This document shows positions 12,508 through 59,420 of a DNA stretch of 64,000 bases, one piece after another (the stretch's first letter is position 1; each line of letters starts with the position of its first letter). The position numbers were made by a program, and so were the translations under genes. Source of the DNA: Blastocystis sp. Blastoise (taxonomy: Eukaryota; Protista; Bigyra: Opalinata); contig JBBPEB010000004.1 of assembly GCA_039096225.1 (NCBI GenBank), positions 868,001 through 932,000 of the forward strand. Reading direction: 5' to 3'. The notes beneath the pieces were generated by a model. It made no database searches. It was given only the letters and a program-made list of their open reading frames with translations, and had not been told where the DNA came from.

Positions 12508-16570
<4,063 letters not shown>

Positions 16571-17345
16571 ACAAACGATATGATTATTGTATACATTCTT
16601 TTCATATTTTTCTTCTCACTGTTATATCATATATTCAAATTTAATATATATACTATATATATATATATATATATGTTATTTAGTCTTTTTCAATTTCTTC
16701 TAAAATATTTCTATCCTTTATAACTTATCACTATTATGATTCTTTTCATTTTCCATTTTATTTTATTTATTTCTATTCCTTATTTTAAATTAAATATCTA
16801 CACAACCGAATCAATATTATATGCTTTATTTTTTTCATAGAAAAATAGTTTTTAATAACATTTTTTCAATTCTCTATTTGATAAAGAATCTTTGATAGTC
16901 TATTTGTTTTCTAGTTGCTATAGAATGCGAAAAAAGCAGTGAGGATGATAATCAAAAGACTATTTTATCAATGGAAAAATGAAAACTCCAACAATCACTC
17001 TTAAAATTCTTTTCTCATAGCATAACTATCTCAATAAAGCAGACTTTAATTATATTATAATAACAAATTAGTATGATCAATATTTTATAAACAGTTAAAT
17101 AGCAAAAAACGATATAAGATTTAAAAATTTTAAGTTTTTTCAGCATAATTATAGTATATTTCATCTTAGTAAATGAAATTTTCAGGAAAAAAATTCAAAA
17201 TATTAAAAAACTTTTGAAAACGCTAAATAGTTCATAATTTTCTATACAGTATGTATTTAGTAAAATATCATTCATTAGAATATACTATTATAATTTCCAG
17301 TTTGTTTTAAATTTAATTTATATAGTTATTCATACAAATTATATT

Positions 17346-20300
17346 ATGTCATCCACAGAATCAATAGAAGAATCTGCTATATGTATGTATTATTTGTATA
17401 ATCATGTTTTCTATCTGTTTGCCATAAGTACTATCAGAATTTTAAATAGTGTGCTTCCTTTTTTCGGATTCGAAAACATTGTTTTTAGAAAGTGATCTCG
17501 TCAATCAATATCCATCAAGTCTTCTCTATCAAGGTTATCAAAAAGGAAAGTGTATAGTTGATGGACAAACCATGTATGTTGTTGATCACGAAAAAAATGC
17601 TATTGAATATGTTATTTCATTGATAATCAATAAAGATATCAATTTTGCTAATTTGCCTGAAGAGATTTTACCTGATGTTTATACAGATTTATGTGATTTC
17701 TTTCCTGATAATTTTGATGATATGAAGAAACAACTCCTAGTTGCCGTTAAAGTACAATTTATTATGATTGTAAAGAATCAGAATGATTCATTATACCAAC
17801 GAGTGTTAAAACGTTCAAAAATTGATGAAGATCTATTGTCAGAGTTATTAGATGTCAAAACAATTGATGATTTACATCCTTCTAAACATTATACATATAT
17901 GACTGATGGTATGTGATTATTCTTATATACATGATAAATATTATAGGTTGTTTAACAAATTCAAAAATTGATTATTTCGTCAAGTATATGCCCTATTTTG
18001 ATTTTTTTCATTTTGATATCGTTATTATTCGTTATGATGGTCCCTTAAAGATACAAAATACTAATACGCAATCATCAATATTGAATATGAATAAGAAAAA
18101 AGAGAAATTTCATTTTATCAAAAACTTTATTCATCCTATTATATTTGATGTTTTTAAAGATCTTGATTTTTGCCAATGCAGTAGTAAGCTATTTTTTTAA
18201 TTTATACTGAATCCATTTAATATATAATATTAATCATCCTTTTTTTCTTAAATTTAACTTTCTATGATGCTATAGTCTCTTATAAACATAATAAGAACAT
18301 TCAATATGATGATTGTTTTCAATATAAATACTGTCCTTCCTCCTTCACAAAAGTTTCTACTCCTGGAAAAAGACCTCTTAGCGAAAGTATTACTTTACTA
18401 ATTATCATAATTATATAATATAATAAACAGTAGTAATTTTAAATATATATATAGATTTAGAAAAAGATTATATATTACAATATATAAAGTATGATATATA
18501 ATAAATTTTATCTAGAATATATTATATAAATAGATTAGTAGATATACATACAAGGGATCTTCTTTCTCTCTTATTCCCAGAGTTCATATGTAGTCGAGTC
18601 ACAGAAATCATTCCTTGTATATATAAATACTCTTTATTTTTTGTTAATCTTATATAAAAAATTTTTTATTATAGCAAGTCATTTGCCTGATGAGATAATT
18701 CAGTCGTTATTTCAAATCTATAAACAAAATACTTTTGATAATCTTGTTGACTTAAATTTATCATGTATATACTTATCAATATTTATTTAATATCATATAT
18801 TTAATATCATATATTTAATATCATATATATATATATATATATTTAATAGTTGGAAGTCTTAATGAAAAATCACTTGAAGAACTACTTAAATTATTAAAGA
18901 ATAACTCATTCAATGTGTTTATTATCGATTTCTCAAGTATATTATATTTCTCATTTTACTTGTATTTATATGATTCATAATGATTCTGTATTTAGATTAT
19001 GAATTTACTGAAACAAGTTATAATTATTTACGTTCTTTTATCTTATCATTCATGAAAGAGAAATACAAATATCTATCAACAATCAAATTTTCTAATTGTA
19101 TTATATCTCTTCTTATTCTTTATATCTATTGATAAATACATTATTCTTTTTTTATTATATATTTTATAGGTGACTTTCAAAACAAATATTCCCTTATTAA
19201 TCTTCTTGACAATAACGTTTTTTATAGAATCGAAAATCTTTATTTAGATGGTACATATATATATTATTATGTAGTGATTCATCTATATTATATCTAGGTA
19301 CTACCAATATTTCTGATCTTTCATCATCCTATGAATATCTTTGTCATAATAATTATCTTCATTTAAAAAATCTTTATATTGATCGTATATATGTTTTAAT
19401 TCGTTATTAACTATATTCATATTATTTTATTTTTTGGAATATTTTAATTTTGATATTTTTATAGCTATATATATATCAAAAGATATAACAGAATCTTATC
19501 CATTCTACTCTCAACTCTTTATTAAGAATTATGTTCAAAATCTTGAATATTTTGGAATCACATGTATATATATTATAATATTATTATTTGCTTTTTCTGT
19601 TTAAATTTCTTATCTGATTTTGTTTATAACTTGTATTTTTAATAATCACTTCGTTGAACACGTATTCTTTTCGTAATATCATTCACTAATACTCTATTTA
19701 TAGCCGTTCCATTGACACTGGATCTTATTGAAATGTATAAACCAATTTTTACGTCATCCTGTTTTCAAACCATATATACTTTAGACCTAACAAGTATATA
19801 TTATGTTTTATATTAACATTCTTTATTATTCTTTTTTTTTCTTATTATAATAATAATTGTTATTATTCTTTTCATCTTCACTGTAATAGTAATAATAATA
19901 AATATTATTATATAGATACAGAACTAACAGATACATTATTCTATGAGTTTATATCTATGAATAATGACGGGGCATTTAAAGGAATTCAAGAACTTAATTT
20001 ATCCAGTATCTTACTATTACACTTTATTATATATATCATTATTTATTTATAAAGATAATCCACTTACAATCACAAGTATGAAATTACTTTTTCAGTCAAT
20101 TTCAGATGGCCATTTCCCTCAGTTACATTCCTTAAATCTTTCAAGTATTTTTATTAACTGATTCTTATATATATATATAAATAATCTATTATTGAACCCA
20201 TTTTTTATAGATCTTTCATCTATAACTGAAATAGGATGGGAAACGTGTTTTAATATTCTTTATAAACGATTTAATATTAAAAATGATCCAAATGATTACT

Positions 20301-20386
20301 GCTTTATTCAATCATGGTCTCTACAATGTATATTAGTCTATATATTAAAATAAATATAATATAATTTTATAAATATAATATTATTC

Positions 20387-20437
<51 letters not shown>

Positions 20438-20988
20438 CCGATAATCTTGGAGAAAAAGGATTCAAATCGTTTTTCCAACTTATTAATAATAATATATTCA
20501 AAACAATTAAAAAACTTTATTTTAATAGTATATATAACTATATATATTATATTATATTAATTATATATTATTCATTATATTATAGATTCAGGACTAAGTG
20601 ATGATTCAATGCCATTACTTATTCAAGCTATTCAAAATAATAAACTTAACAACATTGTTTTATTAAGATTCTTCTGTATATATACTAGTAATATATTATT
20701 TTAAAATGCTATTTCTATAGCAAAGAGTATTTCTCTTCCAATTTTATCTCAATTATACTCATTATTAGACGATGATCATGTGCCATATTTAGTTGATATT
20801 ACTTCTCCAGGTTTATATATATATATTATATATTATACCTTTTCTTTATTGTTATATATATATATATATATTATATATATATATATATATATAAAGATGA
20901 TGTATGCCCAGAAAACGTGGATCAACTATGTAATATACTTAAAGGGCTTCACTCTGTCACTTCAGGTTCTCTTAAATATTTGATTTAA
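17346..20988 (+). CDS. Second BTB/POZ-like + LRR multi-exon protein (same architecture as 12508-16570)
   Basis: ATG 17346 MSSTESIEESAI spliced to LCFLFSDSKTLFLESDLVNQYPSSLLY. LRR exons include FDNLVDLNLS, FPQLHSLNLS and FKTIKKLYFN. TAA at 20986-20988. Confidence 0.75.
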
Positions 20989-21461: not shown

Positions 21462-37374
<15,913 letters not shown>

Positions 37375-40685: not shown

Positions 40686-41091
40686 TTCTTCATAAATAAA
40701 TGATATATGAAACAAAAGATTTATGATTGAAATATTTCTGCTGAAAAGAACAAAAGATATTGTAAAATATCTGTACATTTATATATATATTCCCATATTA
40801 TGTACCTGGAGGGCACCGACAATTTGTCGAAGAAAGCACTACGAGTTTTCTGAAAATCTTCTCATTTTTCCCTACAATAATCAAAAATTCCCGGAAGAAA
40901 AGATTTACATATCCCCAAGAATGTCCGTTAAAGACCCTAATATACAATACTTCCCATTTTCTCTTTCACTTTTTATTATAGCAAAAGGAGTTTAGGCAGT
41001 ATCTATTAGACAACTGACATCTCTTGGTATTTTACGCTAATGTTCTTGTTCGATTACCGATCACTATCACTATGGACATTTTTTCAGGTTT

Positions 41092-41300
41092 CTGTCAAAA
41101 GGTCCAACGACTTTTTTGTTTTGGTTTCCCCAGTGGTGAGCAGTGAAAATTTTTAAATATGTAGCTGACAAAAGGTTATTTGATTTTTCTGTTTGGTTTC
41201 CCCAGTGGTGGAGCAGTGAAAAAATTTTAAAGGGTAGCTGACAAAAGGTCCAACGACTTTTTTGCTTTGGTTTCCCCAGTGGTGAGCAGTGAAATTTTTT
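41092..41300 (+). repeat. CACTA subterminal direct repeats (also ~49668-49876)
   Basis: Three copies of TTTGGTTTCCCCAGTGGTG(G)AGCAGTGAAA, each preceded by (G)CTG(A/T)CAAAAGGT, with a period of ~74 bp. Confidence 0.85.
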
Positions 41301-41588
41301 GTCAGAGTTTCAGTGATTTTATAAAATCGAAAAGCAGTGCAAAAGTATGACGCACCTTAAAACAATAATTGGCGAATAAAAATGGTTTTAAATATTCTCT
41401 ATTTTTTCATTTATTGGTTTTTTTATTCTTTTTGTGGTGTAATAATAAACGATATAACAAAACAAACAAATTAAATATTATCAAATAATCATAAAAACAA
41501 ATAATAGAAAACAATAATAATAAATATATAAAAAAAAGATAATAAAACATATAATAAATAATATAATAAAATATATATAATATTTAAT

Positions 41589-42259
41589 TTATAATATTTC
41601 AACCAGGACAGTTTCAGTCTTTAATTTGCATTTAAGCCTAAGCAACCTATATAAAGAGATGATATTAATTAACTAGTACTATTAGTAATATATATAACAT
41701 TTTAAAATAATAATAAAATAAAAATATATACCTTTTATTGAAGCCATTACTAGAAAAAGCAAGGACCAAAGGCAAGGAACCATCCTATAAAAGATATATT
41801 AAATAGTATAAGTAATAAAAAGGAATATAATTAATATATATACATACCTTTGATAAGCCATTCTCTCCAATTAACAACAACGACAGCAACGGAACCCCCG
41901 GAAACCTATATAAAGATAGAGTAAGTTATATAATATAATAATATATAATAAAGTAAATTAATATAGAATAATAAAATATAAATATATACATTACTGCTAT
42001 ATAAATATAAAGTGGGGTTAGTTATATAATATGTAATAGATAATATAGATGATATATACCTTCTTTTAACATTGATTCCTTCCATTCTAGACCTAAAGAA
42101 CCCATCTATAAGAGAGCCACGACCACACAAAAGAAGGACCAGAACGTTTAAGGAGACCAGCAAGTGTCAAAACACCAAGCAGAGACAGCTACTATAGAAA
42201 AATGAATGAATAGAGTAGAAAAAATAAAATATAAAGAAACAGCAAACACCTACCATCAT
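41589..42259 (-). other. Spliced cargo unit inside CACTA copy A (5 exons), coding status ambiguous
   Basis: GC-richer exons bounded by AG/GT: ..42254, 42188-42060, 41905-41848, 41784-41732, 41646-.. They are separated by AT-rich introns with GTAGGT/GTATAT/GTATGT donors and TAG acceptors. Confidence 0.65.
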
Positions 42260-44099
42260 AATAGTATCATATATAATAAAATAAAAATAAAATTTAATAA
42301 TATATCATATTAATCATATAAGATATAATAAAATAAATATGTGATAAGTCATGTAGCATTTTGTTTTGTTATAAAAGGGTGTAATAGGAATTTAGAAGAT
42401 ATAGCTGAAATAATGAAAATAAACATGAATAATCTCATATCTACTAAATATAGAGAATCTTCATCATAAGAAAAATGAATGGTTAAGAATAAAAGAGAAA
42501 GAAAAATTTTATTTCTATGAGGAAAATGGATATTGTTATTGTTATTTTCAATTTATCATAATTATCATAAGTAATACAAAAATTGTTTTATTTTAAAGAA
42601 TTATATAGTTATTTATCATTATATCATTTTATAATCAGTTTTGACTATGGAAGAGTGATTTTTATCCTTAATTGTCAAAATTATTTTTAGTATCACTCAG
42701 TAAGTATAAGTCTTTTAAAAAATAAATATAGGTTACAATACAGACTTATAGAGAAGACTCTGAAACTTCTATTTCCAGAATAAAAGTCATTTATATAATC
42801 CAGAATGATTGCCTGAATCATTATTTAAAGAATCAGTTTTATCACATATCTTCAATAAAATTATAAAATAAAGAAAATGAAGATAAAAAGGTCTAGAGTC
42901 GAAAAATGTTATGAAATATTATCTTTTTAATGTATTTGTCCCGATTTTTTATTAATCTGTTATCATAATATGACAAAGAGAGTGGTAAAAACATTTTAAA
43001 AGTGAATTAAAGCAATAATTGGAATCAAGTTAAAGTCTTCTAATACCTTTAAATAGACTTGAAATACATAGAGTAAGCATTTTTTCATGCAAATAGTGTT
43101 TTTCATTTAAATAATATCAAAAACAAATCAAAATAGTATTTTATAATTACTCAGCAAGAACTTTTTCTAGTATTCAAGGACTTACTATTATCAAATATAC
43201 GTATAAACAAACAAAAATCATATTTTATATATTTTTAGTTGAATAGTCGGAGTCGTGTTGATAGTTTATTATAAAACAAATGCAAAAATCACTTTTTTGT
43301 CAAAAAAAGTCTTATATCGATATATAGTTTTATTCATAATTTATTTATTGTCTACAAACTCTGTGTATTCATTTTAAGTGATTTTTAGTAAAACTAAAAT
43401 TATTTGAAATACATATTCTAATTTCGAAAATGACAAAAACATATTATATTACATATTTAGTGTTTAAATGAAGTTTAAAAGTTATTAAAATATCAATTAG
43501 TTAAAAAATATAAAATATTGAGAATCTCCATTTTTATGACTTGTCTTAAATCACGTTAAAGGTGTATAATTGAATAGTTGCATTGATTATTTGTATGATT
43601 CTAGTAATATTTTCTAAGAATTTTGTTTTTTAACAAGAATAAATTCTTAATTTATTGTTTATCAACTTAAAAATGTATTTAAATGATTATTTTCTTGTGT
43701 AAAAGGGTATAGTGGTTATATGAAAAAAAAATTACGCAGAATCATTTGATAATATAATTTTGAAAAATGAGAATTATTATTTTGAACTAAACTAATTTTT
43801 CACATATACTCATTATAAAACGACTTGAATAATCTTTTGAGAAGATTATTTTGTTTTATAATACACTTAAGAAGTAATTGAATGTTATTGTGTCTCTTTT
43901 TGTTAAAAAGATTATTTTGAATGCTATTTTTGATTGATCTATATATTATCAATGCATTCAATGATGAAATAAATACATATGTAAAGAAAAAATAGTAATT
44001 GATCTAATTTATCTTCATCTATTTGAATAGATAATTTTTGAAAAAATTAATATAATATAATTATTGATACCTATATATAAAGAATTAGTTATGTAATTG

Positions 44100-44168
44100 A
44101 CCTTAAGACAGGAATTGAACCTGTTTTCTATCATAAACTGATAGATACTTACCAATATAAGCTTAAGG
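44100..44168 (-). ncRNA. tRNA-like cloverleaf (non-canonical; nominal anticodon TTT) in CACTA copy A
   Basis: Minus strand CCTTAAG-CT-TAT ATTGGTAA GTA-T-CTATC AGTTTAT GATAG-AAA-ACAGG TTCAATT CCTGT-CTTAAGG-T. Acceptor stem 7/7, anticodon stem 5/5, T stem 5/5, D-loop GG, B-box-like GGTTCAATTCC. Confidence 0.75.
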
Positions 44169-44199
44169 ATAATATAGAATAAAAATACATAAATGAAAG

Positions 44200-45911
44200 T
44201 AAAATAGTAGGAATAATGAGTCAGTATGATGTGTAAGGATATATTTATATATGTATAAGTGAAAAAGGATGCTAGAAGAAGGGAAAAGAAGTAAAAAAGA
44301 ATAAAAGAGAAAGAAATATAAAGTAAATGAGATAGGGTCTTTAATTATTGAGATTAATAAAAAAAATGAAAAATAATTTATAATAAATGACAAAGATAGA
44401 TATATAGAGATCTATAATAATAAGGAATGCAGAAGAGAAGAGGATTAGAGGATAAAGAATAAGAAGAAGATAAGGAAGATAAGGAAGAAGATAAGGAAGA
44501 TAAGGAAGAATAAGAAGAAGATAAGGAAGAAGATAAGGAAGATAAGGAAGAATAAGAAGAAGATAAGGAAGAATAAGAAGAAGAAAAGAAGAATAGGAAG
44601 AAGATAAGGAAGATAAGGAAGAAGAAGAAAAGAAGAATAGGAAGAAGATAAGGAAGAAGAAGAAGAATAGGAAGAAGAATAAGAAGATAAGGAAGAATAA
44701 GAAGAATAAGAAGATAAGGAAGATAAGGAAGAAGAAGAAGAAGATAAGGAAGAAGAAGAAAAGAAGAATAGGAAGAAGAAAAAGAAAAGAAGAATAGGAA
44801 GAAGATAAGGAAGAAGAAGAAGAATAGGAAGAAGAATAAGAAGATAAGGAAGATAAGGAAGAATAAGAAGAAGATAAGGAAGAAGAAGAAAAGAAGAATA
44901 GGAAGAAGATAAGGAAGAAGAAGAAGAATAGGAAGAAGAATAAGAAGATAAGGAAGATAAGGAAGAATAAGAAGAAGGAAATGAATAATGACAACAAGAA
45001 GATGAAGAATAAATAGAATAATGATAAGAAAGAATAAATAGATTAATAAGAGAACAAGAGGATGAATGTGAAGAAGAGACAAGGAAGGAGGTGAAAAAAA
45101 GAAAGAAAAGTAAGATAAAGAATAGGAAGAAGATATACAAGAAAATGAAGAAGAAGAGAAAGAAAAGAAAAGAAGAATAAACAAGAAACATATATAGAGA
45201 AACAGAAAGATATAAAGAAATAAAAGAGATAGATAGATAGATAGATAGATAGAGAGAAAAAAAAATACAAAGATATAAATAGATAGATACACTAATAGAT
45301 GAATAGAAAGAAAGAAGAAAAGAGAGACATAAAGAAGAAATTAGATAGAAAGAGATAGAATTCTATATAGAATGAGAGATATACAAAAGAAATCAAATGA
45401 AATAGAGAATAAGATAAAAATAGATACAAGAATAAAGATAAAAAGAGAAATAGAGGAGTAGGGAAGGTGTATAAAAAAGAAAGAATATAAAGATAGGTAG
45501 AGAGGAATTGAGAAGGATAGAGAAGGAGGAGGAAAACAGATAGAATTGGAAGACGAAGAAAAGAAGATGAGACGAAGAAGGGAGAAAAAAGGAGCAGGAA
45601 GTGAATATCAAGAAAGATAAATTTATATAGAAAAAAATTAGAAAGAAAAATACATACAAAGAAAACGATAGGGAATGATAGAGAGAATTATAATTTGAAT
45701 GACATAGAGAGAAGGAGAGACAAAGCAAGATAAAGAAGTATAATAGAAAAAACAAAGAAGAAAAAAAGAAGAATAAAAAAAGAAAAGATAGAACAATAGT
45801 ATATGAGAGAAGAAAGAGACAGAAAGAAAACGGGAAATAGGGTAGAGACATAGAAGGTAATAAAATATATAGAAGGGGAGAGGGGATTGAGATAAATAAA
45901 TAGATAGATAT

Positions 45912-45980
<69 letters not shown>

Positions 45981-48023
45981 GATAGAAGAATACCGAAAGA
46001 TATAGAGAAGGAGATAAATATTAATAAAAAGGAAAATATGGATAGAGAGGAGATAGAATCAAACAGAGAAGGAGAAGTAGATAAAAGTCGATTGAGGGAA
46101 GAGAGAAGTAGATTAAAATAAAAACAAATAGCAAGAGTTAAAAGGAAGAAGGGAAGAATATAGAATGATTTGAAGAATGAGATGTATATAGAAGTGAATA
46201 GAAGGAAATAGAGAAGGAGAAGTAGATAGAAAAGATTAAAAATAGAAGGAGATAGAAAGATAAGAGAATGATATAGATACAATAGAATGAGATAGAGAAG
46301 ATAAAGTAGATAGAAATGGATAGAAATAAGAAAAATAAATAGGATAAGAGAGAAAGAGAGATAAAAGGATATAAAAGGATATAGAAGGAGAGAAAACGGA
46401 TTGAGATGTAGTAAGATGGAAGGATGTAGATGGAAATAGAGAAGTAGATAGAAGATGATGGAGAATAAAGAGGAGATAGAAGAGGAGATAGAAGGAGAAA
46501 AAGAAGAAGAGGAAGTAAATTAAGTTAGAAGGAGATATAATAAGATAGAGAAGTAGATATACGTAGATATAAGGAAATATACGAAGATATAAGTAGATAA
46601 GAGAAAATAGAAGGAAATAGAGAATGAGATTGAGACACATAAATGAGGTAGAATGAGATAGATAAGGATAGAGAAATATGAAGAGAAATATAGGAATACA
46701 GAGAGATAGAATGATGTTGAAAGAGAAAGAAAAGGAAAGACTGAAGATTGAGACAGAAGGAGTAGCTGAGATAAAAGGAAGATAGAGAAGGAAATTGAAA
46801 GATGAAGGAAGAAGGAGAGAAGATGAAAGAAGAAGAATATAGAAGAAGATAGAGAATGAGATAATAGGGATAGAAAGAGAAAAATAGGAAAAAAGATGGT
46901 TAGAAGAAAATAGAAAAGGAGAAAGAAGGAGAGATAGAAGGAGAAATAGAAGGATATAAAAGAGATTAAGAAAGAAGTTAGAGACAAGAAGATATAGATA
47001 TATAGAAAGAAATAAAAGGATTAAATAGAAGATTAATAGGAAATAAATAGGAGACATATAGAAGATTAAGATAGAAGAAAAGAGACAAAATAGAAGTAGA
47101 TATAACAATATAGAGAATGAAAGGATAGAAATAAAAATAGAAAATAGATAACTAGAACATAAGAATATATAATAATAGAGAGAAGGAGAGAGAGAAGAAA
47201 AAGTAGATATAAAGTGGAAAAGGAGACATAGAAGGAAATATAAAAGGAAACAAGAAGGTAGAAAGAGACATATAAGATAAAATAGACAGGGACAGAGAGA
47301 AATAAATGGAAAAAGAATAAGGATAAAGATGGATACGAGAATAGAGAGGGAGAGAAGGAAGATTGAGATAGAATTATACAGAAAGAGGAGAGAAGGAAGA
47401 TAAAGAAGGAAAATAGGGCAGTAAAAAAAAGGGAATCAGAAGGAGGAGAGAAGAAGTATGAGAAGAATAGAAAGAAGGAAGAGGAGGAAGGCAAATAATA
47501 GAAGAGAACTATATATATAATAAATAGTGATATAAATATAAATAAGAAGATGAAGATCTGAAAAAAGCAAAGAATTATATGGAGAAGAAGAAGAAGAAGA
47601 AGAGGAAGAGGAAGAAAAGGAGGGTATACACTAATACATGTCGAGGAAAAAGAAGTATAGAATAAGGAGAAGAGGATAACAGGATAAAAGAAAAAGACAT
47701 AACGAAATACAATGTAAATAGAATAGTGATTAAGAAAGAGTAATGAAAGAGTGATATAAAAGGGAAGCGAAGATAAGAGAGAGGTATAATTAAAAAAAAG
47801 AAAAATAAAGGAATTTAGATAGAAGAAAAAATAAAAGAAAAATGAAGATCTGAGGAAGATAATGAATCAAAGGGAGAGACAAGGATATAGGCTGGAGACA
47901 AGGCATAGGAAGAAGTAATAAAGAAAGAAGATGAAGAAATAAGGAGATAAAAGTGTAGAAGGAAGAAAATGAAGAAGAGAGAAGAAGGAATCATTTTGTG
48001 TAAGAAGAAGAAATAAAGAAGAA
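44200..48023. repeat. ~3.8-kb purine-rich (+)/pyrimidine-rich (-) low-complexity tract, with a GAAGATAAG/GAAGAATAR minisatellite (~44450-44980) and (GATA)n (~45900-45980)
   Basis: The + strand is almost all A/G with sparse T and very few C. The overlapping minus-strand F/L/S 'ORFs' in several frames are a compositional artefact. Confidence 0.9.
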
Positions 48024-48517
48024 CTAGATAATAAATAAATAAATAAATAAATAAATAAACATACCTAATAGAAAAAAATGAATTTGGTGATGTTGAGTCA
48101 TAGGGAAAGATAACCAACAGAAACAGTAGAAAACAACCTAAATAAATAAATAATAATAAATAAAAATATAAAAATAATGAAAATAAATAATAAAATGAAT
48201 TAGATTCTAATTTAAGAAAAAACAAAAAGAAAGCTAATAATAGATAGAATGAATATACGATAAGTACTCTATTATATAATACTTAAAAATATAACAAAGA
48301 AAAAAATTAGAGATAATTATAAAAATAAATAAATACATATATACTTTGAAAGTAGTTTGACATCATAGACGTTGTTGACATGGACTGAAGAGGACTCTTA
48401 TAACCATGGACGAGCAGGAACCTATACATGCTAGAGAATGGGAGAATGTTAATATTGATAAAGAATAAAAAATAGTAATATACATACAAGAGAATAATCT
48501 GAAGTTAAAATCAACTT
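48023..48517 (-). other. Putative 5' spliced exons of a CACTA-internal transcript (copy A; copy B ~56595-57089)
   Basis: AG/GT-bounded blocks at 48517-48488, 48421-48345 and 48137-48065, then an acceptor opening an exon at 48023 that runs into the pyrimidine tract. Confidence 0.55.
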
Positions 48518-50164
48518 CTATTTTTTAAAATAACAGCTAATAAAAATAAAATAAAAATAAAGAAAATAAGTAACAAATGAAAATATTTTCTAAGTTAATA
48601 GGCTCAATAGCGTATGGGTGTATTCAGGTCTTAAAAGAAAAATCATTTTTGCGGGAATATCAAGAAACTCAAAAAAAGTATTTTTTCCCTCCTTTTTTCA
48701 CTGTCACTTTTCTTTAATATTTTTGACTTTTTAGTATTAAAAACGATTCTTACAGGCATGTATAGAGACTCTATACCACTTTTGAGACTAAAAATCAAAT
48801 ATTTAAAAATGAGTGAAAATCTTGACTAGCAAGAAAAACAATTATGTGAAGCTGAGTATGTTGTGTATACACATATCTAACAACAGAGATGATAAAAACA
48901 CACAACTCCTCTTGGTTTAGGACATAATTATGAATTCTCTCAAAAAAGCTATTTTAAACCTTAAAACGATACCCTGAACTATAAATCAAGTCCTGAATGA
49001 TATTCTAAAGTCATATTTTTAAAAACAGGTTTAATGACGATAATCAATAAACAAAAACAAGAGCTTCCGTTTTACTTTTCTTTTTTGAATTTTTAATTGT
49101 TTTGACTTTCTAGGGTAGTTGGCTGAAAGAAATGTTGTCGTCTTTAGGCTAAAAAATGATGAATAAAAAAGTCAAGTCATTTTATTGTTTTTTCCTTGGG
49201 AAATAAAAAAGAAGAAATTTTTAGGTGTGTTTTGGTTTAGGCTGTATAATGGTTTTTATTGTAAAAGGACTTGACGAGAATGATTGAAATGATAATACAT
49301 CACTCAGAGAACACACAACTTTAAAAAATTTGTCACTCATGTAATCCATTCCTGAATTATAGACTTCAGAGAAAAAATTAAAGTCTTTTTGGTTTTAAAC
49401 AGTCATTTTAAATCATAAAACACTGTAAAATAGTCAATATTTAGAATGTCTATGATTATATAAATAAACAATATATTTTGTAGAGTTATTTTTAAGTTTT
49501 TCTCGTCAAAAAGAGAGAAACTTGACAAGTTGGCGGACACTCTTTTCTCGAGTTTAGGCCAACGTATTTTTGATTAAAAAATCCCAGTCATTTTGTTGTT
49601 TCTCTTACGGGAAATAGGGTCAAAAAAACACAAAATGTCCATAGTGTATGGACATTTTTTCAGGTTTCTGTCAAAAGGTCCAACGACTTTTTTGTTTTGG
49701 TTTCCCCAGTGGTGAGCAGTGAAAATTTTTAAATATGTAGCTGACAAAAGGTTATTTGATTTTTCTGTTTGGTTTCCCCAGTGGTGGAGCAGTGAAAAAA
49801 TTTTAAAGGGTAGCTGACAAAAGGTCCAACGACTTTTTTGCTTTGGTTTCCCCAGTGGTGAGCAGTGAAATTTTTTGTCAGAGTTTCAGTGATTTTATAA
49901 AATCGAAAAGCAGTGCAAAAGTATGACGCACCTTAAAACAATAATTGGCGAATAAAAATGGTTTTAAATATTCTCTATTTTTTCATTTATTGGTTTTTTT
50001 ATTCTTTTTGTGGTGTAATAATAAACGATATAACAAAACAAACAAATTAAATATTATCAAATAATCATAAAAACAAATAATAGAAAACAATAATAATAAA
50101 TATATAAAAAAAAGATAATAAAACATATAATAAATAATATAATAAAATATATATAATATTTAAT

Positions 50165-50835
50165 TTATAATATTTCAACCAGGACAGTTTCAGTCTTTAA
50201 TTTGCATTTAAGCCTAAGCAACCTATATAAAGAGATGATATTAATTAACTAGTACTATTAGTAATATATATAACATTTTAAAATAATAATAAAATAAAAA
50301 TATATACCTTTTATTGAAGCCATTACTAGAAAAAGCAAGGACCAAAGGCAAGGAACCATCCTATAAAAGATATATTAAATAGTATAAGTAATAAAAAGGA
50401 ATATAATTAATATATATACATACCTTTGATAAGCCATTCTCTCCAATTAACAACAACGACAGCAACGGAACCCCCGGAAACCTATATAAAGATAGAGTAA
50501 GTTATATAATATAATAATATATAATAAAGTAAATTAATATAGAATAATAAAATATAAATATATACATTACTGCTATATAAATATAAAGTGGGGTTAGTTA
50601 TATAATATGTAATAGATAATATAGATGATATATACCTTCTTTTAACATTGATTCCTTCCATTCTAGACCTAAAGAACCCATCTATAAGAGAGCCACGACC
50701 ACACAAAAGAAGGACCAGAACGTTTAAGGAGACCAGCAAGTGTCAAAACACCAAGCAGAGACAGCTACAATAGAAAATTGAATGAATAGAGTAGAAAAAA
50801 TAAAATATAAAGAAACAGCAAACACCTACCATCAT
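50165..50835 (-). other. Spliced cargo unit inside CACTA copy B
   Basis: Same exon structure as 41589-42259 (offset 8,576). Confidence 0.65.
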
Positions 50836-52675
50836 AATAGTATCATATATAATAAAATAAAAATAAAATTTAATAATATATCATATTAATCATATAAGAT
50901 ATAATAAAATAAATATGTGATAAGTCATGTAGCATTTTGTTTTGTTATAAAAGGGTGTAATAGGAATTTAGAAGATATAGCTGAAATAATGAAAATAAAC
51001 ATGAATAATCTCATATCTACTAAATATAGAGAATCTTCATCATAAGAAAAATGAATGGTTAAGAATAAAAGAGAAAGAAAAATTTTATTTCTATGAGGAA
51101 AATGGATATTGTTATTGTTATTTTCAATTTATCATAATTATCATAAGTAATACAAAAATTGTTTTATTTTAAAGAATTATATAGTTATTTATCATTATAT
51201 CATTTTATAATCAGTTTTGACTATGGAAGAGTGATTTTTATCCTTAATTGTCAAAATTATTTTTAGTATCACTCAGTAAGTATAAGTCTTTTAAAAAATA
51301 AATATAGGTTACAATACAGACTTATAGAGAAGACTCTGAAACTTCTATTTCCAGAATAAAAGTCATTTATATAATCCAGAATGATTGCCTGAATCATTAT
51401 TTAAAGAATCAGTTTTATCACATATCTTCAATAAAATTATAAAATAAAGAAAATGAAGATAAAAAGGTCTAGAGTCGAAAAATGTTATGAAATATTATCT
51501 TTTTAATGTATTTGTCCCGATTTTTTATTAATCTGTTATCATAATATGACAAAGAGAGTGGTAAAAACATTTTAAAAGTGAATTAAAGCAATAATTGGAA
51601 TCAAGTTAAAGTCTTCTAATACCTTTAAATAGACTTGAAATACATAGAGTAAGCATTTTTTCATGCAAATAGTGTTTTTCATTTAAATAATATCAAAAAC
51701 AAATCAAAATAGTATTTTATAATTACTCAGCAAGAACTTTTTCTAGTATTCAAGGACTTACTATTATCAAATATACGTATAAACAAACAAAAATCATATT
51801 TTATATATTTTTAGTTGAATAGTCGGAGTCGTGTTGATAGTTTATTATAAAACAAATGCAAAAATCACTTTTTTGTCAAAAAAAGTCTTATATCGATATA
51901 TAGTTTTATTCATAATTTATTTATTGTCTACAAACTCTGTGTATTCATTTTAAGTGATTTTTAGTAAAACTAAAATTATTTGAAATACATATTCTAATTT
52001 CGAAAATGACAAAAACATATTATATTACATATTTAGTGTTTAAATGAAGTTTAAAAGTTATTAAAATATCAATTAGTTAAAAAATATAAAATATTGAGAA
52101 TCTCCATTTTTATGACTTGTCTTAAATCACGTTAAAGGTGTATAATTGAATAGTTGCATTGATTATTTGTATGATTCTAGTAATATTTTCTAAGAATTTT
52201 GTTTTTTAACAAGAATAAATTCTTAATTTATTGTTTATCAACTTAAAAATGTATTTAAATGATTATTTTCTTGTGTAAAAGGGTATAGTGGTTATATGAA
52301 AAAAAAATTACGCAGAATCATTTGATAATATAATTTTGAAAAATGAGAATTATTATTTTGAACTAAACTAATTTTTCACATATACTCATTATAAAACGAC
52401 TTGAATAATCTTTTGAGAAGATTATTTTGTTTTATAATACACTTAAGAAGTAATTGAATGTTATTGTGTCTCTTTTTGTTAAAAAGATTATTTTGAATGC
52501 TATTTTTGATTGATCTATATATTATCAATGCATTCAATGATGAAATAAATACATATGTAAAGAAAAAATAGTAATTGATCTAATTTATCTTCATCTATTT
52601 GAATAGATAATTTTTGAAAAAATTAATATAATATAATTATTGATACCTATATATAAAGAATTAGTTATGTAATTG

Positions 52676-52744
52676 ACCTTAAGACAGGAATTGAACCTGT
52701 TTTCTATCATAAACTGATAGATACTTACCAATATAAGCTTAAGG
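52676..52744 (-). ncRNA. tRNA-like cloverleaf in CACTA copy B
   Basis: Identical to 44100-44168. Confidence 0.75.
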
Positions 52745-52775
52745 ATAATATAGAATAAAAATACATAAATGAAAG

Positions 52776-54486
52776 TAAAATAGTAGGAATAATGAGTCAG
52801 TATGATGTGTAAGGATATATTTATATATGTATAAGTGAAAAAGGATGCTAGAAGAAGGGAAAAGAAGTAAAAAAGAATAAAAGAGAAAGAAATATAAAGT
52901 AAATGAGATAGGGTCTTTAATTATTGAGATTAATAAAAAAAATGAAAAATAATTTATAATAAATGACAAAGATAGATATATAGAGATCTATAATAATAAG
53001 GAATGCAGAAGAGAAGAGGATTAGAGGATAAAGAATAAGAAGAAGATAAGGAAGATAAGGAAGAAGATAAGGAAGATAAGGAAGAATAAGAAGAAGATAA
53101 GGAAGAAGATAAGGAAGATAAGGAAGAATAAGAAGAAGATAAGGAAGAATAAGAAGAAGAAAAGAAGAATAGGAAGAAGATAAGGAAGATAAGGAAGAAG
53201 AAGAAAAGAAGAATAGGAAGAAGATAAGGAAGAAGAAGAAGAATAGGAAGAAGAATAAGAAGATAAGGAAGAATAAGAAGAATAAGAAGATAAGGAAGAT
53301 AAGGAAGAAGAAGAAGAAGATAAGGAAGAAGAAGAAAAGAAGAATAGGAAGAAGAAAAAGAAAAGAAGAATAGGAAGAAGATAAGGAAGAAGAAGAAGAA
53401 TAGGAAGAAGAATAAGAAGATAAGGAAGATAAGGAAGAATAAGAAGAAGATAAGGAAGAAGAAGAAAAGAAGAATAGGAAGAAGATAAGGAAGAAGAAGA
53501 AGAATAGGAAGAAGAATAAGAAGATAAGGAAGATAAGGAAGAATAAGAAGAAGGAAATGAATAATGACAACAAGAAGATGAAGAATAAATAGAATAATGA
53601 TAAGAAAGAATAAATAGATTAATAAGAGAACAAGAGGATGAATGTGAAGAAGAGACAAGGAAGGAGGTGAAAAAAAGAAAGAAAAGTAAGATAAAGAATA
53701 GGAAGAAGATATACAAGAAAATGAAGAAGAAGAGAAAGAAAAGAAAAGAAGAATAAACAAGAAACATATATAGAGAAACAGAAAGATATAAAGAAATAAA
53801 AGAGATAGATAGATAGATAGATAGATAGAGAGAAAAAAAATACAAAGATATAAATAGATAGATACACTAATAGATGAATAGAAAGAAAGAAGAAAAGAGA
53901 GACATAAAGAAGAAATTAGATAGAAAGAGATAGAATTCTATATAGAATGAGAGATATACAAAAGAAATCAAATGAAATAGAGAATAAGATAAAAATAGAT
54001 ACAAGAATAAAGATAAAAAGAGAAATAGAGGAGTAGGGAAGGTGTATAAAAAAGAAAGAATATAAAGATAGGTAGAGAGGAATTGAGAAGGATAGAGAAG
54101 GAGGAGGAAAACAGATAGAATTGGAAGACGAAGAAAAGAAGATGAGACGAAGAAGGGAGAAAAAAGGAGCAGGAAGTGAATATCAAGAAAGATAAATTTA
54201 TATAGAAAAAAATTAGAAAGAAAAATACATACAAAGAAAACGATAGGGAATGATAGAGAGAATTATAATTTGAATGACATAGAGAGAAGGAGAGACAAAG
54301 CAAGATAAAGAAGTATAATAGAAAAAACAAAGAAGAAAAAAAGAAGAATAAAAAAAGAAAAGATAGAACAATAGTATATGAGAGAAGAAAGAGACAGAAA
54401 GAAAACGGGAAATAGGGTAGAGACATAGAAGGTAATAAAATATATAGAAGGGGAGAGGGGATTGAGATAAATAAATAGATAGATAT

Positions 54487-54555
<69 letters not shown>

Positions 54556-56595
54556 GATAGAAGAATACCGAAAGATATAGAGAAGGAGATAAATATTAAT
54601 AAAAAGGAAAATATGGATAGAGAGGAGATAGAATCAAACAGAGAAGGAGAAGTAGATAAAAGTCGATTGAGGGAAGAGAGAAGTAGATTAAAATAAAAAC
54701 AAATAGCAAGAGTTAAAAGGAAGAAGGGAAGAATATAGAATGATTTGAAGAATGAGATGTATATAGAAGTGAATAGAAGGAAATAGAGAAGGAGAAGTAG
54801 ATAGAAAAGATTAAAAATAGAAGGAGATAGAAAGATAAGAGAATGATATAGATACAATAGAATGAGATAGAGAAGATAAAGTAGATAGAAATGGATAGAA
54901 ATAAGAAAAATAAATAGGATAAGAGAGAAAGAGAGATAAAAGGATATAAAAGGATATAGAAGGAGAGAAAACGGATTGAGATGTAGTAAGATGGAAGGAT
55001 GTAGATGGAAATAGAGAAGTAGATAGAAGATGATGGAGAATAAAGAGGAGATAGAAGAGGAGATAGAAGGAGAAAAAGAAGAAGAGGAAGTAAATTAAGT
55101 TAGAAGGAGATATAATAAGATAGAGAAGTAGATATACGTAGATATAAGGAAATATACGAAGATATAAGTAGATAAGAGAAAATAGAAGGAAATAGAGAAT
55201 GAGATTGAGACACATAAATGAGGTAGAATGAGATAGATAAGGATAGAGAAATATGAAGAGAAATATAGGAATACAGAGAGATAGAATGATGTTGAAAGAG
55301 AAAGAAAAGGAAAGACTGAAGATTGAGACAGAAGGAGTAGCTGAGATAAAAGGAAGATAGAGAAGGAAATTGAAAGATGAAGGAAGAAGGAGAGAAGATG
55401 AAAGAAGAAGAATATAGAAGAAGATAGAGAATGAGATAATAGGGATAGAAAGAGAAAAATAGGAAAAAAGATGGTTAGAAGAAAATAGAAAAGGAGAAAG
55501 AAGGAGAGATAGAAGGAGAAATAGAAGGATATAAAAGAGATTAAGAAAGAAGTTAGAGACAAGAAGATATAGATATATAGAAAGAAATAAAAGGATTAAA
55601 TAGAAGATTAATAGGAAATAAATAGGAGACATATAGAAGATTAAGATAGAAGAAAAGAGACAAAATAGAAGTAGATATAACAATATAGAGAATGAAAGGA
55701 TAGAAATAAAAATAGAAAATAGATAACTAGAACATAAGAATATATAATAATAGAGAGAAGGAGAGAGAGAAGAAAAAGTAGATATAAAGTGGAAAAGGAG
55801 ACATAGAAGGAAATATAAAAGGAAACAAGAAGGTAGAAAGAGACATATAAGATAAAATAGACAGGGACAGAGAGAAATAAATGGAAAAAGAATAAGGATA
55901 AAGATGGATACGAGAATAGAGAGGGAGAGAAGGAAGATTGAGATAGAATTATACAGAAAGAGGAGAGAAGGAAGATAAAGAAGGAAAATAGGGCAGTAAA
56001 AAAAAGGGAATCAGAAGGAGGAGAGAAGAAGTATGAGAAGAATAGAAAGAAGGAAGAGGAGGAAGGCAAATAATAGAAGAGAACTATATATATAATAAAT
56101 AGTGATATAAATATAAATAAGAAGATGAAGATCTGAAAAAAGCAAAGAATTATATGGAGAAGAAGAAGAAGAAGAGGAAGAGGAAGAAAAGGAGGGTATA
56201 CACTAATACATGTCGAGGAAAAAGAAGTATAGAATAAGGAGAAGAGGATAACAGGATAAAAGAAAAAGACATAACGAAATACAATGTAAATAGAATAGTG
56301 ATTAAGAAAGAGTAATGAAAGAGTGATATAAAAGGGAAGCGAAGATAAGAGAGAGGTATAATTAAAAAAAAGAAAAATAAAGGAATTTAGATAGAAGAAA
56401 AAATAAAAGAAAAATGAAGATCTGAGGAAGATAATGAATCAAAGGGAGAGACAAGGATATAGGCTGGAGACAAGGCATAGGAAGAAGTAATAAAGAAAGA
56501 AGATGAAGAAATAAGGAGATAAAAGTGTAGAAGGAAGAAAATGAAGAAGAGAGAAGAAGGAATCATTTTGTGTAAGAAGAAGAAATAAAGAAGAA
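52776..56595. repeat. Purine-rich low-complexity tract in CACTA copy B
   Basis: Near-identical to 44200-48023, with small repeat-length differences. Confidence 0.9.
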
Positions 56596-59420
56596 CTAGA
56601 TAATAAATAAATAAATAAATAAATAAATAAACATACCTAATAGAAAAAAATGAATTTGGTGATGTTGAGTCATAGGGAAAGATAACCAACAGAAACAGTA
56701 GAAAACAACCTAAATAAATAAATAATAATAAATAAAAATATAAAAATAATGAAAATAAATAATAAAATGAATTAGATTCTAATTTAAGAAAAAACAAAAA
56801 GAAAGCTAATAATAGATAGAATGAATATACGATAAGTACTCTATTATATAATACTTAAAAATATAACAAAGAAAAAAATTAGAGATAATTATAAAAATAA
56901 ATAAATACATATATACTTTGAAAGTAGTTTGACATCATAGACGTTGTTGACATGGACTGAAGAGGACTCTTATAACCATGGACGAGCAGGAACCTATACA
57001 TGCTAGAGAATGGGAGAATGTTAATATTGATAAAGAATAAAAAATAGTAATATACATACAAGAGAATAATCTGAAGTTAAAATCAACTTCTATTTTTTAA
57101 AATAACAGCTAATAAAAATAAAATAAAAATAAAGAAAATAAGTAACAAATGAAAATATTTTCTAAGTTAATAGGCTCAATAGCGTATGGGTGTATTCAGG
57201 TCTTAAAAGAAAAATCATTTTTGCGGGAATATCAAGAAACTCAAAAAAAGTATTTTTTCCCTCCTTTTTTCACTGTCACTTTTCTTTAATATTTTTGACT
57301 TTTTAGTATTAAAAACGATTCTTACAGGCATGTATAGAGACTCTATACCACTTTTGAGACTAAAAATCAAATATTTAAAAATGAGTGAAAAATCTTGACT
57401 AGCAAGAAAAACAATTATGTGAAGCTGAGTATGTTGTGTATACACATATCTAACAACAGAGATGATAAAAACACACAACTCCTCTTGGTTTAGGACATAA
57501 TTATGAATTCTCTCAAAAAAGCTATTTTAAACCTTAAAACGATACCCTGAACTATAAATCAAGTCCTGAATGATATTCTAAAGTCATATTTTTAAAAACA
57601 GGTTTAATGACGATAATCAATAAACAAAAACAAGAGCTTCCGTTTTACTTTTCTTTTTTGAATTTTTAATTGTTTTGACTTTCTAGGGTAGTTGGCTGAA
57701 AGAAATGTTGTCGTCTTTAGGCTAAAAAATGATGAATAAAAAAGTCAAGTCATTTTATTGTTTTTTCCTTGGGAAATAAAAAAGAAGAAATTTTTAGGTG
57801 TGTTTTGGTTTAGGCTGTATAATGGTTTTTATTGTAAAAGGACTTGACGAGAATGATTGAAATGATAATACATCACTCAGAGAACACACAACTTTAAAAA
57901 ATTTGTCACTCATGTAATCCATTCCTGAATTATAGACTTCAGAGAAAAAATTAAAGTCTTTTTGGTTTTAAACAGTCATTTTAAATCATAAAACACTGTA
58001 AAATAGTCAATATTTAGAATGTCTATGATTATATAAATAAACAATATATTTTGTAGAGTTATTTTTAAGTTTTTCTCGTCAAAAAGAGAGAAACTTGACA
58101 AGTTGGCGGACACTCTTTTCTCGAGTTTAGGCCAACGTATTTTTGATTAAAAAATCCCAGTCATTTTGTTGTTTCTCTTACGGGAAATAGGGTCAAAAAA
58201 ACACAAAATGTCCATAGTGGATTGAACTCTTTCTAAACACTTGGGTTATAGTGTTTATCTTTGTATAAAATAGATTGCTGTTTACTTCATATATTCAGTT
58301 TTCTCTCTGGAATTCTAGATTTAAAAAGATATCTTTTAATCATCTGATTAATACTGTCAATAAGTAAATATTACTGTATACAAATAGTTAAGATTTTCAT
58401 GATACTAGTGATTGTTCAAATATGATTGCTATTAGTTTTCAGAAAAAAAAACTGACAAAACCAAAGAAAAATATTAAATAAATGATACTACGAATTTTGC
58501 AATAAATAAAAACAATAGTATAGAAATAACTTTAAAAATGATATCGACACATATAGAATATTTTAACTAATACAAAAGAAAATATATGTACAACTGGTTA
58601 ATTAGTAAAAAAAAAGTAATTATATAACAAATAAAGAAAATGAAATGAGATATATCGCTATAATGGAATGAAAATGAAGAAATCATATAAAAGAGAAAGA
58701 ATAATATATAATGAAAAAATATATAATCTTTATATAGTATAGAAAAGTAAAAGAATCTAATTGAATGAAATCAAAAAGAAATCTAGACCATATAGATATA
58801 AAAATATAAATTATTAATATATATATATCTATAGGTGATATTCACAATTCAGAAATATATATATATATTAAAAATAAGGAACTATAGATTACAAAAATAT
58901 ATGAATTATTTAGTGTGTATAATAATACACATGAATCAGAAGAATAATATATATAGAACATAAGAGAAAGGGTACAAGAAGAGGTTTGAAATAAAAGAAA
59001 ATAGATATTTATTGAGCTTAAAAATTAGGAAAAAAAAATAAAAAGAAAAGCATCATATAAATAATAAAATGAAATTATATTTTTGGAAAAGAAATAGTGA
59101 TATATATACTATAAAAAGTGTTCATTAAAAAATATAAGCAAATATAATGAATTTAAATAAGAGATATAAACATATACATAGAAAGAAAGAAATTACTTAA
59201 AAAGTAACAAACAAGAATATATATATATATAAATGAATAATAGAAAATGGTACAATAAATAATGAAAAATAATAAAGAAACTACAGAAACATATTCTAAG
59301 AGATTCTATGTATGTATATATATACAATATATAATGAATAATGAATAGATAATATTTCCCTTTATATGAATATTCATATCATATTAAAAGCAACAATTGA
59401 TATATATATAATAGTATGCA

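What the first reader, a model, noticed from the sequence alone, without database searches (positions are those of the whole stretch)
44100..48650. Candidate spliced lncRNA: short 5' exons, 3.8-kb U/C-rich exon, terminal tRNA-like structure (MALAT1/mascRNA-like layout)
Seen: on the minus strand, from near the right end of the element, three AG/GT-bounded exons (48517-48488, 48421-48345, 48137-48065) lead to an acceptor at 48023. The extreme pyrimidine tract starts there and fades just before the cloverleaf at 44168. The second spliced unit lies 1.8 kb further on the same strand. No convincing protein is encoded. Knowledge: MALAT1/NEAT1 3' ends are made by RNase P cleavage at a tRNA-like element. 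Inference: this 8.6-kb element mobilises an RNA-based module in which a tRNA mimic punctuates a long polypyrimidine RNA. This is the best candidate for an undescribed system in the window.
Basis: inference. Interest (0 to 1): 0.75.

Follow-up and report, generated by a model that had tools for sequence, protein, structure and literature searches.

The report
tRNA mimic inside protein-free protist transposon
A jumping gene with no recognisable protein gene, sitting as two near-identical copies in a microbial eukaryote, carries a 3.9-kb pyrimidine-rich stretch followed by a sequence predicted to fold like a tRNA, which likely lets the host's tRNA-cutting enzymes split the element's RNA, though no cut has been shown.

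Summary
The tract and the cloverleaf are real; the MALAT1 reading is only partly met. They lie in an 8,579-bp CACTA-ended element (15-bp inverted ends, 3-bp target duplication GAT) present as a 99.9% identical head-to-tail dimer, with no recognisable protein gene. The 69-nt cloverleaf (minus, 44168-44100) folds with z -4.1 and matches Rfam tRNA full length but below threshold (23.3 bits against 29). It keeps the 7+5 acceptor/T helix, the T-loop and the D-loop GG; its anticodon loop is non-canonical. MALAT1's A-rich tract is absent upstream. One public run (probably RNA, contigs only) holds 63% of the element's words; one unbroken contig crosses the cloverleaf, so no end at 44169 is shown. The only clean splice joint seen there is on the plus strand. 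The 5' exons were not tested on reads. Best reading (0.4): a structure-selected tRNA mimic acting as an RNase P/Z cut site that splits and destabilises a non-coding element RNA. Main rival (0.25): a Pol III pseudo-tRNA passenger. The scan noted a similar idea before on other DNA (mussel transposon, e1-9835764, unchecked).

The parts
41059..41061 (.). Left target-site duplication GAT, followed by an extra CACTAT hexamer (41062-41067)
41068..49646 (.). Element copy 1, 8,579 bp, CACTA...TAGTG ends, 15-bp perfect terminal inverted repeats
49647..58219 (.). Element copy 2, head to tail, 99.92% identical, lacks the first 3 nt of its left end; no target duplication at the junction
58220..58222 (.). 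Right target-site duplication GAT
41078..41300 (.). Subterminal direct repeats, 3 copies at 73-bp spacing, at one end only
48488..48517 (-). Predicted exon 1 (weak acceptor; may simply be the transcript start)
   Evidence: untested on reads
48345..48421 (-). Predicted exon 2 (strong donor, weak acceptor)
   Evidence: untested on reads
48065..48137 (-). Predicted exon 3 (acceptor 9.2, donor 7.2)
   Evidence: untested on reads
48024..48064 (-). Predicted 41-nt intron to the first AG after the donor
44169..48023 (-). 3,855-nt non-coding polypyrimidine tract of degenerate TCTA/CTT/TCT simple sequence; holds a 9-mer array (44455-44976) and a 4-mer microsatellite (45890-45980); UCUU 72 per kb against 12 in the host flanks
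44100..44168 (-). tRNA-like cloverleaf, 69 nt: 7-bp acceptor, D arm with GG, 7-bp stem with 5-nt loop (or 5-bp stem with 7-nt loop lacking Y32/U33), 5-bp T stem, canonical T-loop that is also a perfect B box
52676..52744 (-). Identical cloverleaf in copy 2
44071..44091 (-). Branch-point-like motif and strong acceptor (score 9.6, 3rd best on the element's minus strand) just after the cloverleaf; no joint here in run X1
44041..44046 (-). T6 run, first possible Pol III terminator, 54 nt after the cloverleaf
43939..43976 (-). 38-nt GT..AG intron candidate; X1 has a 38-nt skip here that is one letter off the canonical cut
43201..43238 (+). 38-nt GT..AG intron skipped in one X1 contig: an antisense, non-coding spliced RNA
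43206..43213 (-). Exact TGTTTGTT, the Blastocystis poly(A)-site motif, 0.9 kb after the cloverleaf
   Evidence: PMC4159000 passages
41472..42191 (-). Second predicted spliced unit: exons 42191-42060, 41905-41848, 41784-41732, 41646-41472; donors 10.4, 8.1, 10.4; acceptors 8.0, 6.0, 10.7; exact TGTTTGTT at 41468-41461
   Evidence: untested on reads

Best explanation
The stretch is the interior of a CACTA-ended DNA transposon with no recognisable protein gene, and its cloverleaf is likely a structure-selected tRNA mimic that host RNase P and RNase Z would cut inside a long, likely minus-strand non-coding RNA. Shown: the element's ends and target duplication, the non-coding tract, the tRNA-like match, and the lack of a MALAT1-type A-rich tract. 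Predicted: the fold. Inferred: transposition by a transposase supplied in trans; Pol II transcription from about 48.5 kb through short exons, the tract (as an exon) and the cloverleaf towards the poly(A) motif at 43213. Inferred: partial cutting at 44169/44168 and after 44100, which would release a ~70-nt RNA and leave both long pieces unprotected. The site would then split and destabilise (throttle) the element's RNA and would not finish a stable MALAT1-like lncRNA.
For: All stems pair: acceptor 7/7, D 4/4, anticodon-like 7/7, T 5/5, with pair probabilities 0.87-1.0 for 22 of 23 pairs and 0.52 for one, inside 551 nt of context. Yet the sequence scores only 23.3 bits against Rfam tRNA (gathering 29; E 0.0042 for 121 nt; model positions 1-71 of 71), and ARAGORN calls it only at a relaxed threshold. 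Plain decay should break pairs. Acceptor+T helix, T-loop and D-loop GG are kept while the anticodon loop is not; the T-hairpin is also the best-conserved part of the MALAT1/NEAT1 tRNA-like elements (PMC12941219 passages). Tract skew (T>A, C>G) has the sign of host sense-strand introns (AT skew -0.20, GC skew -0.32 in 22 of the 35 candidates), and the element's best donors are on the minus strand (10.4 against 8.5). X1 holds 0.63 of 893 words while non-tract sequence is 0.55 of the query, so at least ~700 tract bases are held. X1 contigs up to 85% alike cover 43128-43479 and 43987-44135, so diverged relatives with the cloverleaf's 3' half exist. No A-rich tract lies upstream (4 A in the last 12 nt), so a cut end would lack MALAT1's protection.
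Against: No cleavage was observed. X1 record 7 (514 nt, depth 11.1, 0 differences) crosses both predicted cut sites; contigs cannot show ends, and X1 may hold DNA. 1 of 3 runs holds the stretch, all from one study. The only clean joint of 3 is on the plus strand. No covariation test was possible: 40 of 85 differences were shown, none within 43987-44135, and no relative was found. T-loop and GG are also the Pol III B and A boxes, so their conservation fits the promoter rival equally. RNase P/Z genes of this host were not checked (no genome).
Confidence: 0.4

Rival explanations
1. The cloverleaf is a Pol III-type passenger: a captured pseudo-tRNA or SINE-like head transcribed from its own A/B boxes to the T6 run at 44046 (~125 nt), or a TFIIIC-bound boundary. 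The tract is unrelated expanded simple sequence.
For: Perfect B box, 1 of only 3 such matches in the window, 2 of them the two copies; T6 54 nt downstream; the diverged X1 contig resembles the window over 43987-44135 and little beyond; CACTA elements capture host fragments and tandem repeats (PMC6379663, PMC8978399 passages).
Against: The A box is imperfect (2-3 departures from the consensus as I recall it); a promoter alone does not need a perfect 7-bp acceptor and 7-bp anticodon-like stem; no target duplication or tail around the cloverleaf was seen by eye.
Confidence: 0.25
2. Neutral passenger: the tract is slippage-built simple sequence, the cloverleaf a decayed tRNA copy, and the RNA is low-level read-through from both strands.
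For: Tract made of degenerate 3-, 4- and 9-mers; X1 depths mostly 2-5 with an antisense spliced contig; 2 of 3 runs hold nothing; score below the Rfam threshold.
Against: A tRNA copy decayed to 23 bits should have broken pairs; none of 23 is broken. Splice and poly(A) signals line up on one strand.
Confidence: 0.13
3. One reading: a stable spliced U/C-rich lncRNA whose 3' end is made by RNase P at the cloverleaf, as in MALAT1/NEAT1, possibly acting as a sponge for polypyrimidine-binding proteins.
For: Layout tract - tRNA-like element - poly(A) motif 0.9 kb further resembles MALAT1 (~0.4 kb; PMC8457004); UCUU 72 per kb, compare PNCTR (PMC6224606 abstract); the highest listed contig depth in the laid stretch is at the tract end (11.1 against 2-3.5), a weak hint only; an antisense RNA exists at MALAT1 too (PMC4824109 abstract).
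Against: No A-rich tract upstream of the cut site; the unit is predicted to be spliced; a contig crosses the site.
Confidence: 0.12
4. Tract and cloverleaf are one 4-kb intron (donor 48064 to acceptor 44071), with the mimic just upstream of the branch point and cut from the lariat or pre-mRNA.
For: Branch-like motif and the 3rd-best acceptor directly follow the cloverleaf; tract G (2.4%) and T (56%) equal those of host intron candidates (2.1%, 56%); an unchecked scan note describes intronic tRNA mimics in a mussel transposon.
Against: X1 record 7 passes 44071 with no joint or loose end; the spliceosome would have to skip 14 AGs, the first 41 nt after the donor, in a host whose intron candidates were sought and found at 47-232 nt.
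Confidence: 0.1

Closest known systems
Non-autonomous / Pack-CACTA elements (PMC6379663, PMC8978399; passages)
   Same: CACTA termini, short TIRs, 3-bp target duplication, subterminal repeats, no transposase, internal passenger sequence, direct tandem copies.
   Different: No host donor for the interior was found; subterminal repeats at one end only; cargo is a non-coding tract plus a tRNA-like element; host is a microbial eukaryote.
MALAT1/mascRNA and NEAT1/menRNA (PMC8457004, PMC12941219; passages)
   Same: tRNA-like element with intact acceptor/T helix downstream of a long non-coding sequence and upstream of a poly(A) signal; antisense RNA at the locus.
   Different: No A-rich tract, so no triple helix of that type; predicted introns; inside a transposon; cleavage not shown.
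PNCTR (PMC6224606; abstract)
   Same: Kilobases of pyrimidine-rich simple sequence dense in PTB-type motifs.
   Different: PNCTR is a human Pol I transcript with shown binding; here expression level, strand and binding are not shown.
tRNA-derived SINE heads and pseudo-tRNAs (recalled; no paper read)
   Same: B box, partial A box, downstream T run.
   Different: All stems still pair; it sits sense to, and at the end of, the tract; no tail or own target duplication seen.
Tandem transposon dimers (bioRxiv 10.1101/158386; passages)
   Same: Head-to-tail dimer of a complete element.
   Different: No target duplication at the junction and 3 nt lost there, which fits a circle/concatemer route or a junction deletion better than a plain double insertion.

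Membership tests
CACTA/EnSpm (non-autonomous) | CACTA...TAGTG termini with short TIRs | tested here: met
   15-bp perfect TIR
CACTA/EnSpm (non-autonomous) | 3-bp target-site duplication | tested here: met
   GAT on both sides of the dimer; the left one is offset by an extra CACTAT
CACTA/EnSpm (non-autonomous) | Subterminal direct and inverted repeats at both ends | tested here: inconclusive
   3 x 73 bp direct at the left end; only loose two-copy repeats at the right
CACTA/EnSpm (non-autonomous) | Autonomous partner with a CACTA transposase and the same TIRs | not testable with these tools
   No genome held; no Pfam family at cut-off in 12 frames of the element
Pack-CACTA | Interior derived from identifiable host genes | tested here: inconclusive
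   Only low-complexity matches within the window; rest of genome unavailable
MALAT1/NEAT1-type lncRNA | tRNA-like element | tested here: met
   (predicted fold)
MALAT1/NEAT1-type lncRNA | A-rich tract directly upstream, forming a triple helix with a U-rich loop | tested here: not met
   4 A in the last 12 nt; at most 7 of 12 anywhere in 162 nt upstream (definition)
MALAT1/NEAT1-type lncRNA | RNase P and RNase Z cleavage making the RNA ends | tested here: inconclusive
   A contig crosses both sites; contigs cannot show ends
MALAT1/NEAT1-type lncRNA | Abundant nuclear long RNA | not testable with these tools
   Only low-depth contigs of one run whose kind is a guess
Translating tRNA | Canonical cloverleaf above family thresholds | tested here: not met
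   0 ARAGORN genes at default; 23.3 bits against 29
Translating tRNA | 7-nt anticodon loop with Y32/U33 | tested here: not met
   Loop is 5 nt, or 7 nt starting A-G
tRNA-derived SINE / Pol III unit | Internal A and B boxes and T-run terminator | tested here: inconclusive
   B box perfect, A box partial (recalled consensus), T6 at +54
tRNA-derived SINE / Pol III unit | Dispersed copies outside this element with own target duplications | not testable with these tools
   No genome; one diverged contig is compatible but not decisive

The most novel reading that the evidence does not exclude
A DNA transposon whose only cargo is an RNA module: a spliced 4-kb polypyrimidine RNA whose end is cut by the host's tRNA machinery at a tRNA mimic and which sequesters polypyrimidine-binding proteins. 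It would be the first MALAT1-style maturation outside vertebrates that I could find, without a triple helix, and a mobile one.
Probability: 0.15. Interest if true: 0.85.

Novelty: new variant of a known kind. Interest (0 to 1): 0.5.

Why it matters
MALAT1 and NEAT1 are described as the only lncRNAs matured by the tRNA-processing machinery (PMC12941219, abstract passage). A tRNA mimic used that way inside a recently mobile transposon of a microbial eukaryote would show that the trick arose independently and can travel, and would give transposons an RNA-only way to limit or punctuate their own transcripts. It is directly testable with a ~200-nt in vitro substrate. If the mimic is a Pol III passenger or a relic, this is an odd non-autonomous CACTA element and little more.

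Tried and rejected
Protein in the tract: rejected on both strands; reading TAA/TAG as Gln gives no convincing frame, and host genes read by the standard code. Degenerate transposase: 0 of 12 frames at a Pfam cut-off; the best hit, SNF2-related E 0.002, is below cut-off in a stop-riddled frame. Rfam: 0 matches at gathering scores in the window; in a 501-nt scan only snoR21 at E 7.1; the tRNA match appears only in the 121-nt scan, with 3 weaker chance-level matches. ARAGORN mitochondrial modes 'genes' in 500 nt and are uninformative. Relatives: the metagenome pattern gave 16 loci, 0 of 16 alike the element by blastn and none with a T arm; 0 hits in viral contigs and prokaryote genomes; 0 look-alikes in the scan's notes. 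No RNA holder is listed on record; X1-X3 are guesses. X2 and X3 laid 0 contigs, which is no proof of absence; X1 has 2 of 30 bins without cover. Of the 3 joints, the 139-nt AT..AG skip (side 21, diverged contig) is not used, and the 43939 skip is counted only as suggestive. A Fisher test on 'elbow' against other tRNA positions (p 2.5e-4) was computed on a hand count that depends on the numbering and on how the fold was found; not relied on. The cloverleaf is not the most stable 70-nt window of the element: 3 of the windows scanned at 10-nt steps fold lower. Host identity by homology: 1 unnamed hit among 37 candidates, 0 of 17 cluster members named. The 5' exons, the tract above 44450 and unit 2 have no read data, so their splicing is open.
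Full report
Setting. The window is AT-rich, intron-rich eukaryotic DNA read by the standard code: 8 of 11 host ORFs gave some Pfam match at E up to 0.05, among them HEAT, aspartyl protease and AAA_5 above cut-off. No genome is held. Two earlier scan notes call the host likely Blastocystis. I could not confirm this: the one homolog found is unnamed. The Blastocystis poly(A) motif TGTTTGTT (PMC4159000, passages) occurs 8 times exactly in the window, 4 of them in the two element copies, all 4 on the minus strand. Its use here rests on that identity.

The carrier. 41068-49646 and 49647-58219 are 99.92% identical: 2 mismatches and 3 indels in runs. The ends are 15-bp inverted repeats beginning CACTA, flanked by GAT on both sides; the left flank has one extra CACTAT, and the junction has no target duplication and lacks 3 nt. 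Three 73-bp repeats lie inside the left end. These are the marks of CACTA elements (PMC8978399, PMC6379663, passages). No Pfam family reaches cut-off in 12 frames of the non-tract parts, so the element is taken as non-autonomous. Near-identity of the copies and an intact target duplication suggest recent movement (inference). Double insertion normally leaves a target duplication at the junction (10.1101/158386, passages); its absence fits a circle or concatemer route, or a junction deletion.

The tract. 3,855 nt, 83% pyrimidine on the minus strand, built of degenerate TCT/TCTA/CTT words and a 9-mer array. Every frame is broken by stops, and 3-base periodicity is 1.5-2.1 times background outside the array against 28-56 in three host ORF segments. 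The skew has the same sign as host sense-strand intron candidates (22 of the 35 used), which favours minus-strand transcription. It has only low-complexity matches elsewhere in the window.

Splice signals. A matrix from 35 heuristic, unverified host intron candidates rates the three donors and the exon 3 acceptor as host-like, 48024 as lower quartile and the exon 1 and 2 acceptors as weak. I also found a strong acceptor with a branch-like motif at 44071, right after the cloverleaf, which raises an intron model. Against it stand 14 AGs to skip and the read data below.

The cloverleaf. Minus 44168-44100 folds with z -4.11 (0 of 200 shuffles) and keeps its fold in 551 nt of context. A descriptor gives 0 hits in 150 window shuffles, against 12 for T arm plus acceptor alone. 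Rfam tRNA matches over the whole model at 23.3 bits, below the threshold of 29. ARAGORN finds nothing at default and draws a tRNA-Lys(UUU)-like cloverleaf when relaxed. The 7-bp acceptor, 5-bp T stem, T-loop and D-loop GG are intact, while position 8 and the anticodon loop are not canonical. That RNase P and RNase Z read the acceptor/T helix and elbow, not the anticodon, is recalled knowledge; that the T hairpin is the best-conserved part in MALAT1/NEAT1 is from PMC12941219 (passages). Perfect pairing in a sequence this far from the tRNA consensus is the main argument for selection on the fold. The same loop nucleotides are Pol III boxes, and a T6 run lies 54 nt downstream, so the Pol III reading stays open.

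MALAT1 test. MALAT1 needs a U-rich loop and an A-rich tract directly upstream of the tRNA-like element (PMC8457004, passages). The 162 nt upstream are U/C-rich with 4 A in the last 12. That feature is not met, so I do not file it as a MALAT1-type RNA, though it may be cut like one.

Reads. One of 3 listed runs, X1, holds 0.63 of 893 words; its kind is a guess and all three are one study. As non-tract sequence is 0.55 of the query, at least ~700 tract bases are held. On 42345-44450, X1 laid 28 contigs over 28 of 30 bins, X2 and X3 none (8 of 34 pieces and 40 of 85 differences were shown). Record 7 (514 nt, depth 11.1, 0 differences) runs from inside the tract across both predicted cut sites and the 44071 acceptor to 43978. 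Of 3 joints, one is a clean 38-nt GT..AG skip on the plus strand (43201-43238; one contig, depth 2.4). Such ends occur in 6 of 2,068 38-nt windows and in 0.35% of all skips of 20-299 nt, so X1 probably holds RNA, and some of it is antisense to the cloverleaf. A second 38-nt skip lies one letter off a minus-strand GT..AG intron at 43976-43939; it may come from a variant copy or from slippage at a 3-nt repeat. The third is not used. Two contigs about 85% alike show diverged relatives, one covering the cloverleaf's 3' half, but its changes were not among the rows shown, so covariation is untested. Contigs show neither ends, strand nor level, so this neither proves nor excludes cleavage; it does show that uncut sequence is present. 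The 5' exons, most of the tract and unit 2 have no read data.

Mechanism. I commit (0.4) to a tRNA mimic used as an internal RNase P/Z site in a non-coding minus-strand RNA of the element, which splits and destabilises it because no triple helix would protect the cut end. The word 'throttle' is taken from an unchecked scan note on a mussel transposon; that note is a lead, not support. Rivals: Pol III passenger 0.25, neutral relic 0.13, stable MALAT1-like lncRNA 0.12, giant intron 0.10.

Literature. Ten searches of the held library. The listings showed no paper on a tRNA-like element inside a CACTA or other DNA transposon, or on such an element in this host; this is from titles and abstract starts of the listed papers only, and subscription papers are mostly missing. 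In PMC5608401 (passages) 'transposable', 'transposase', 'RNase P' and 'tRNA' occur 0 times, and introns of 30-38 nt are described. PMC6224606 and PMC4824109 were seen as abstracts. No supplements were read; repeat annotations in supplements of protist genome papers could already list this element.

Verdict. A real and unusual arrangement in a known kind of transposon. Function is unproven and one defining MALAT1 feature is absent. Interest 0.5; new variant of a known kind.

Noticed in passing
window 49632-49658: Dimer junction: complete right end fused to a left end lacking 3 nt, no target duplication between, one target duplication around the whole dimer; looks like a circle junction or concatemer insertion.
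   Followed up: partly
window 41059-41067: Extra copy of the first 6 nt of the terminal repeat between the target duplication and the left end.
   Followed up: no
window 41580-42191: The predicted spliced unit 2 (310 nt tested) has a 91-codon open frame in sense (64 from ATG) and a 103-codon open frame without ATG in antisense; about 1% of 2,000 shuffles reach each (post hoc). Exons 41905-41848 and 41784-41732 share short words and may be duplicates.
   Followed up: partly
window 43164-43811 (+): Antisense, non-coding spliced contig in X1 pointing towards the cloverleaf; the stretch between it and unit 2 (about 42250-43160) could be a bidirectional promoter.
   Followed up: partly
window 48657 and 49614 (-): E2F-like words (recalled consensus) in the presumed promoter end of the element; 4 further matches in host flanks and 1 in the tract; no chance test.
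   Followed up: no
window 21465-36773 (-): Two adjacent stop-free frames of 3,522 and 1,580 aa, the first with AAA_5 (E 1e-23) and long low-complexity inserts, separated by a single stop codon; probably one very large midasin-like gene (label recalled).
   Followed up: no
window 364-391 and 3107-3134: Paired ACGCGT boxes (MCB-like, recalled) 22 nt apart at both ends of a 2.7-kb gene-free stretch, in similar flanking words; could be the ends of another element or cell-cycle promoters.
   Followed up: no
window 13000-20950 (+): A host gene of many short exons that appear to repeat a leucine-rich module (seen by eye).
   Followed up: no
window 48916-48926 and 49566 (-): 70-nt windows that fold lower than the cloverleaf windows (-17.2 and -20.4 kcal/mol) in the element's right arm.
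   Followed up: no
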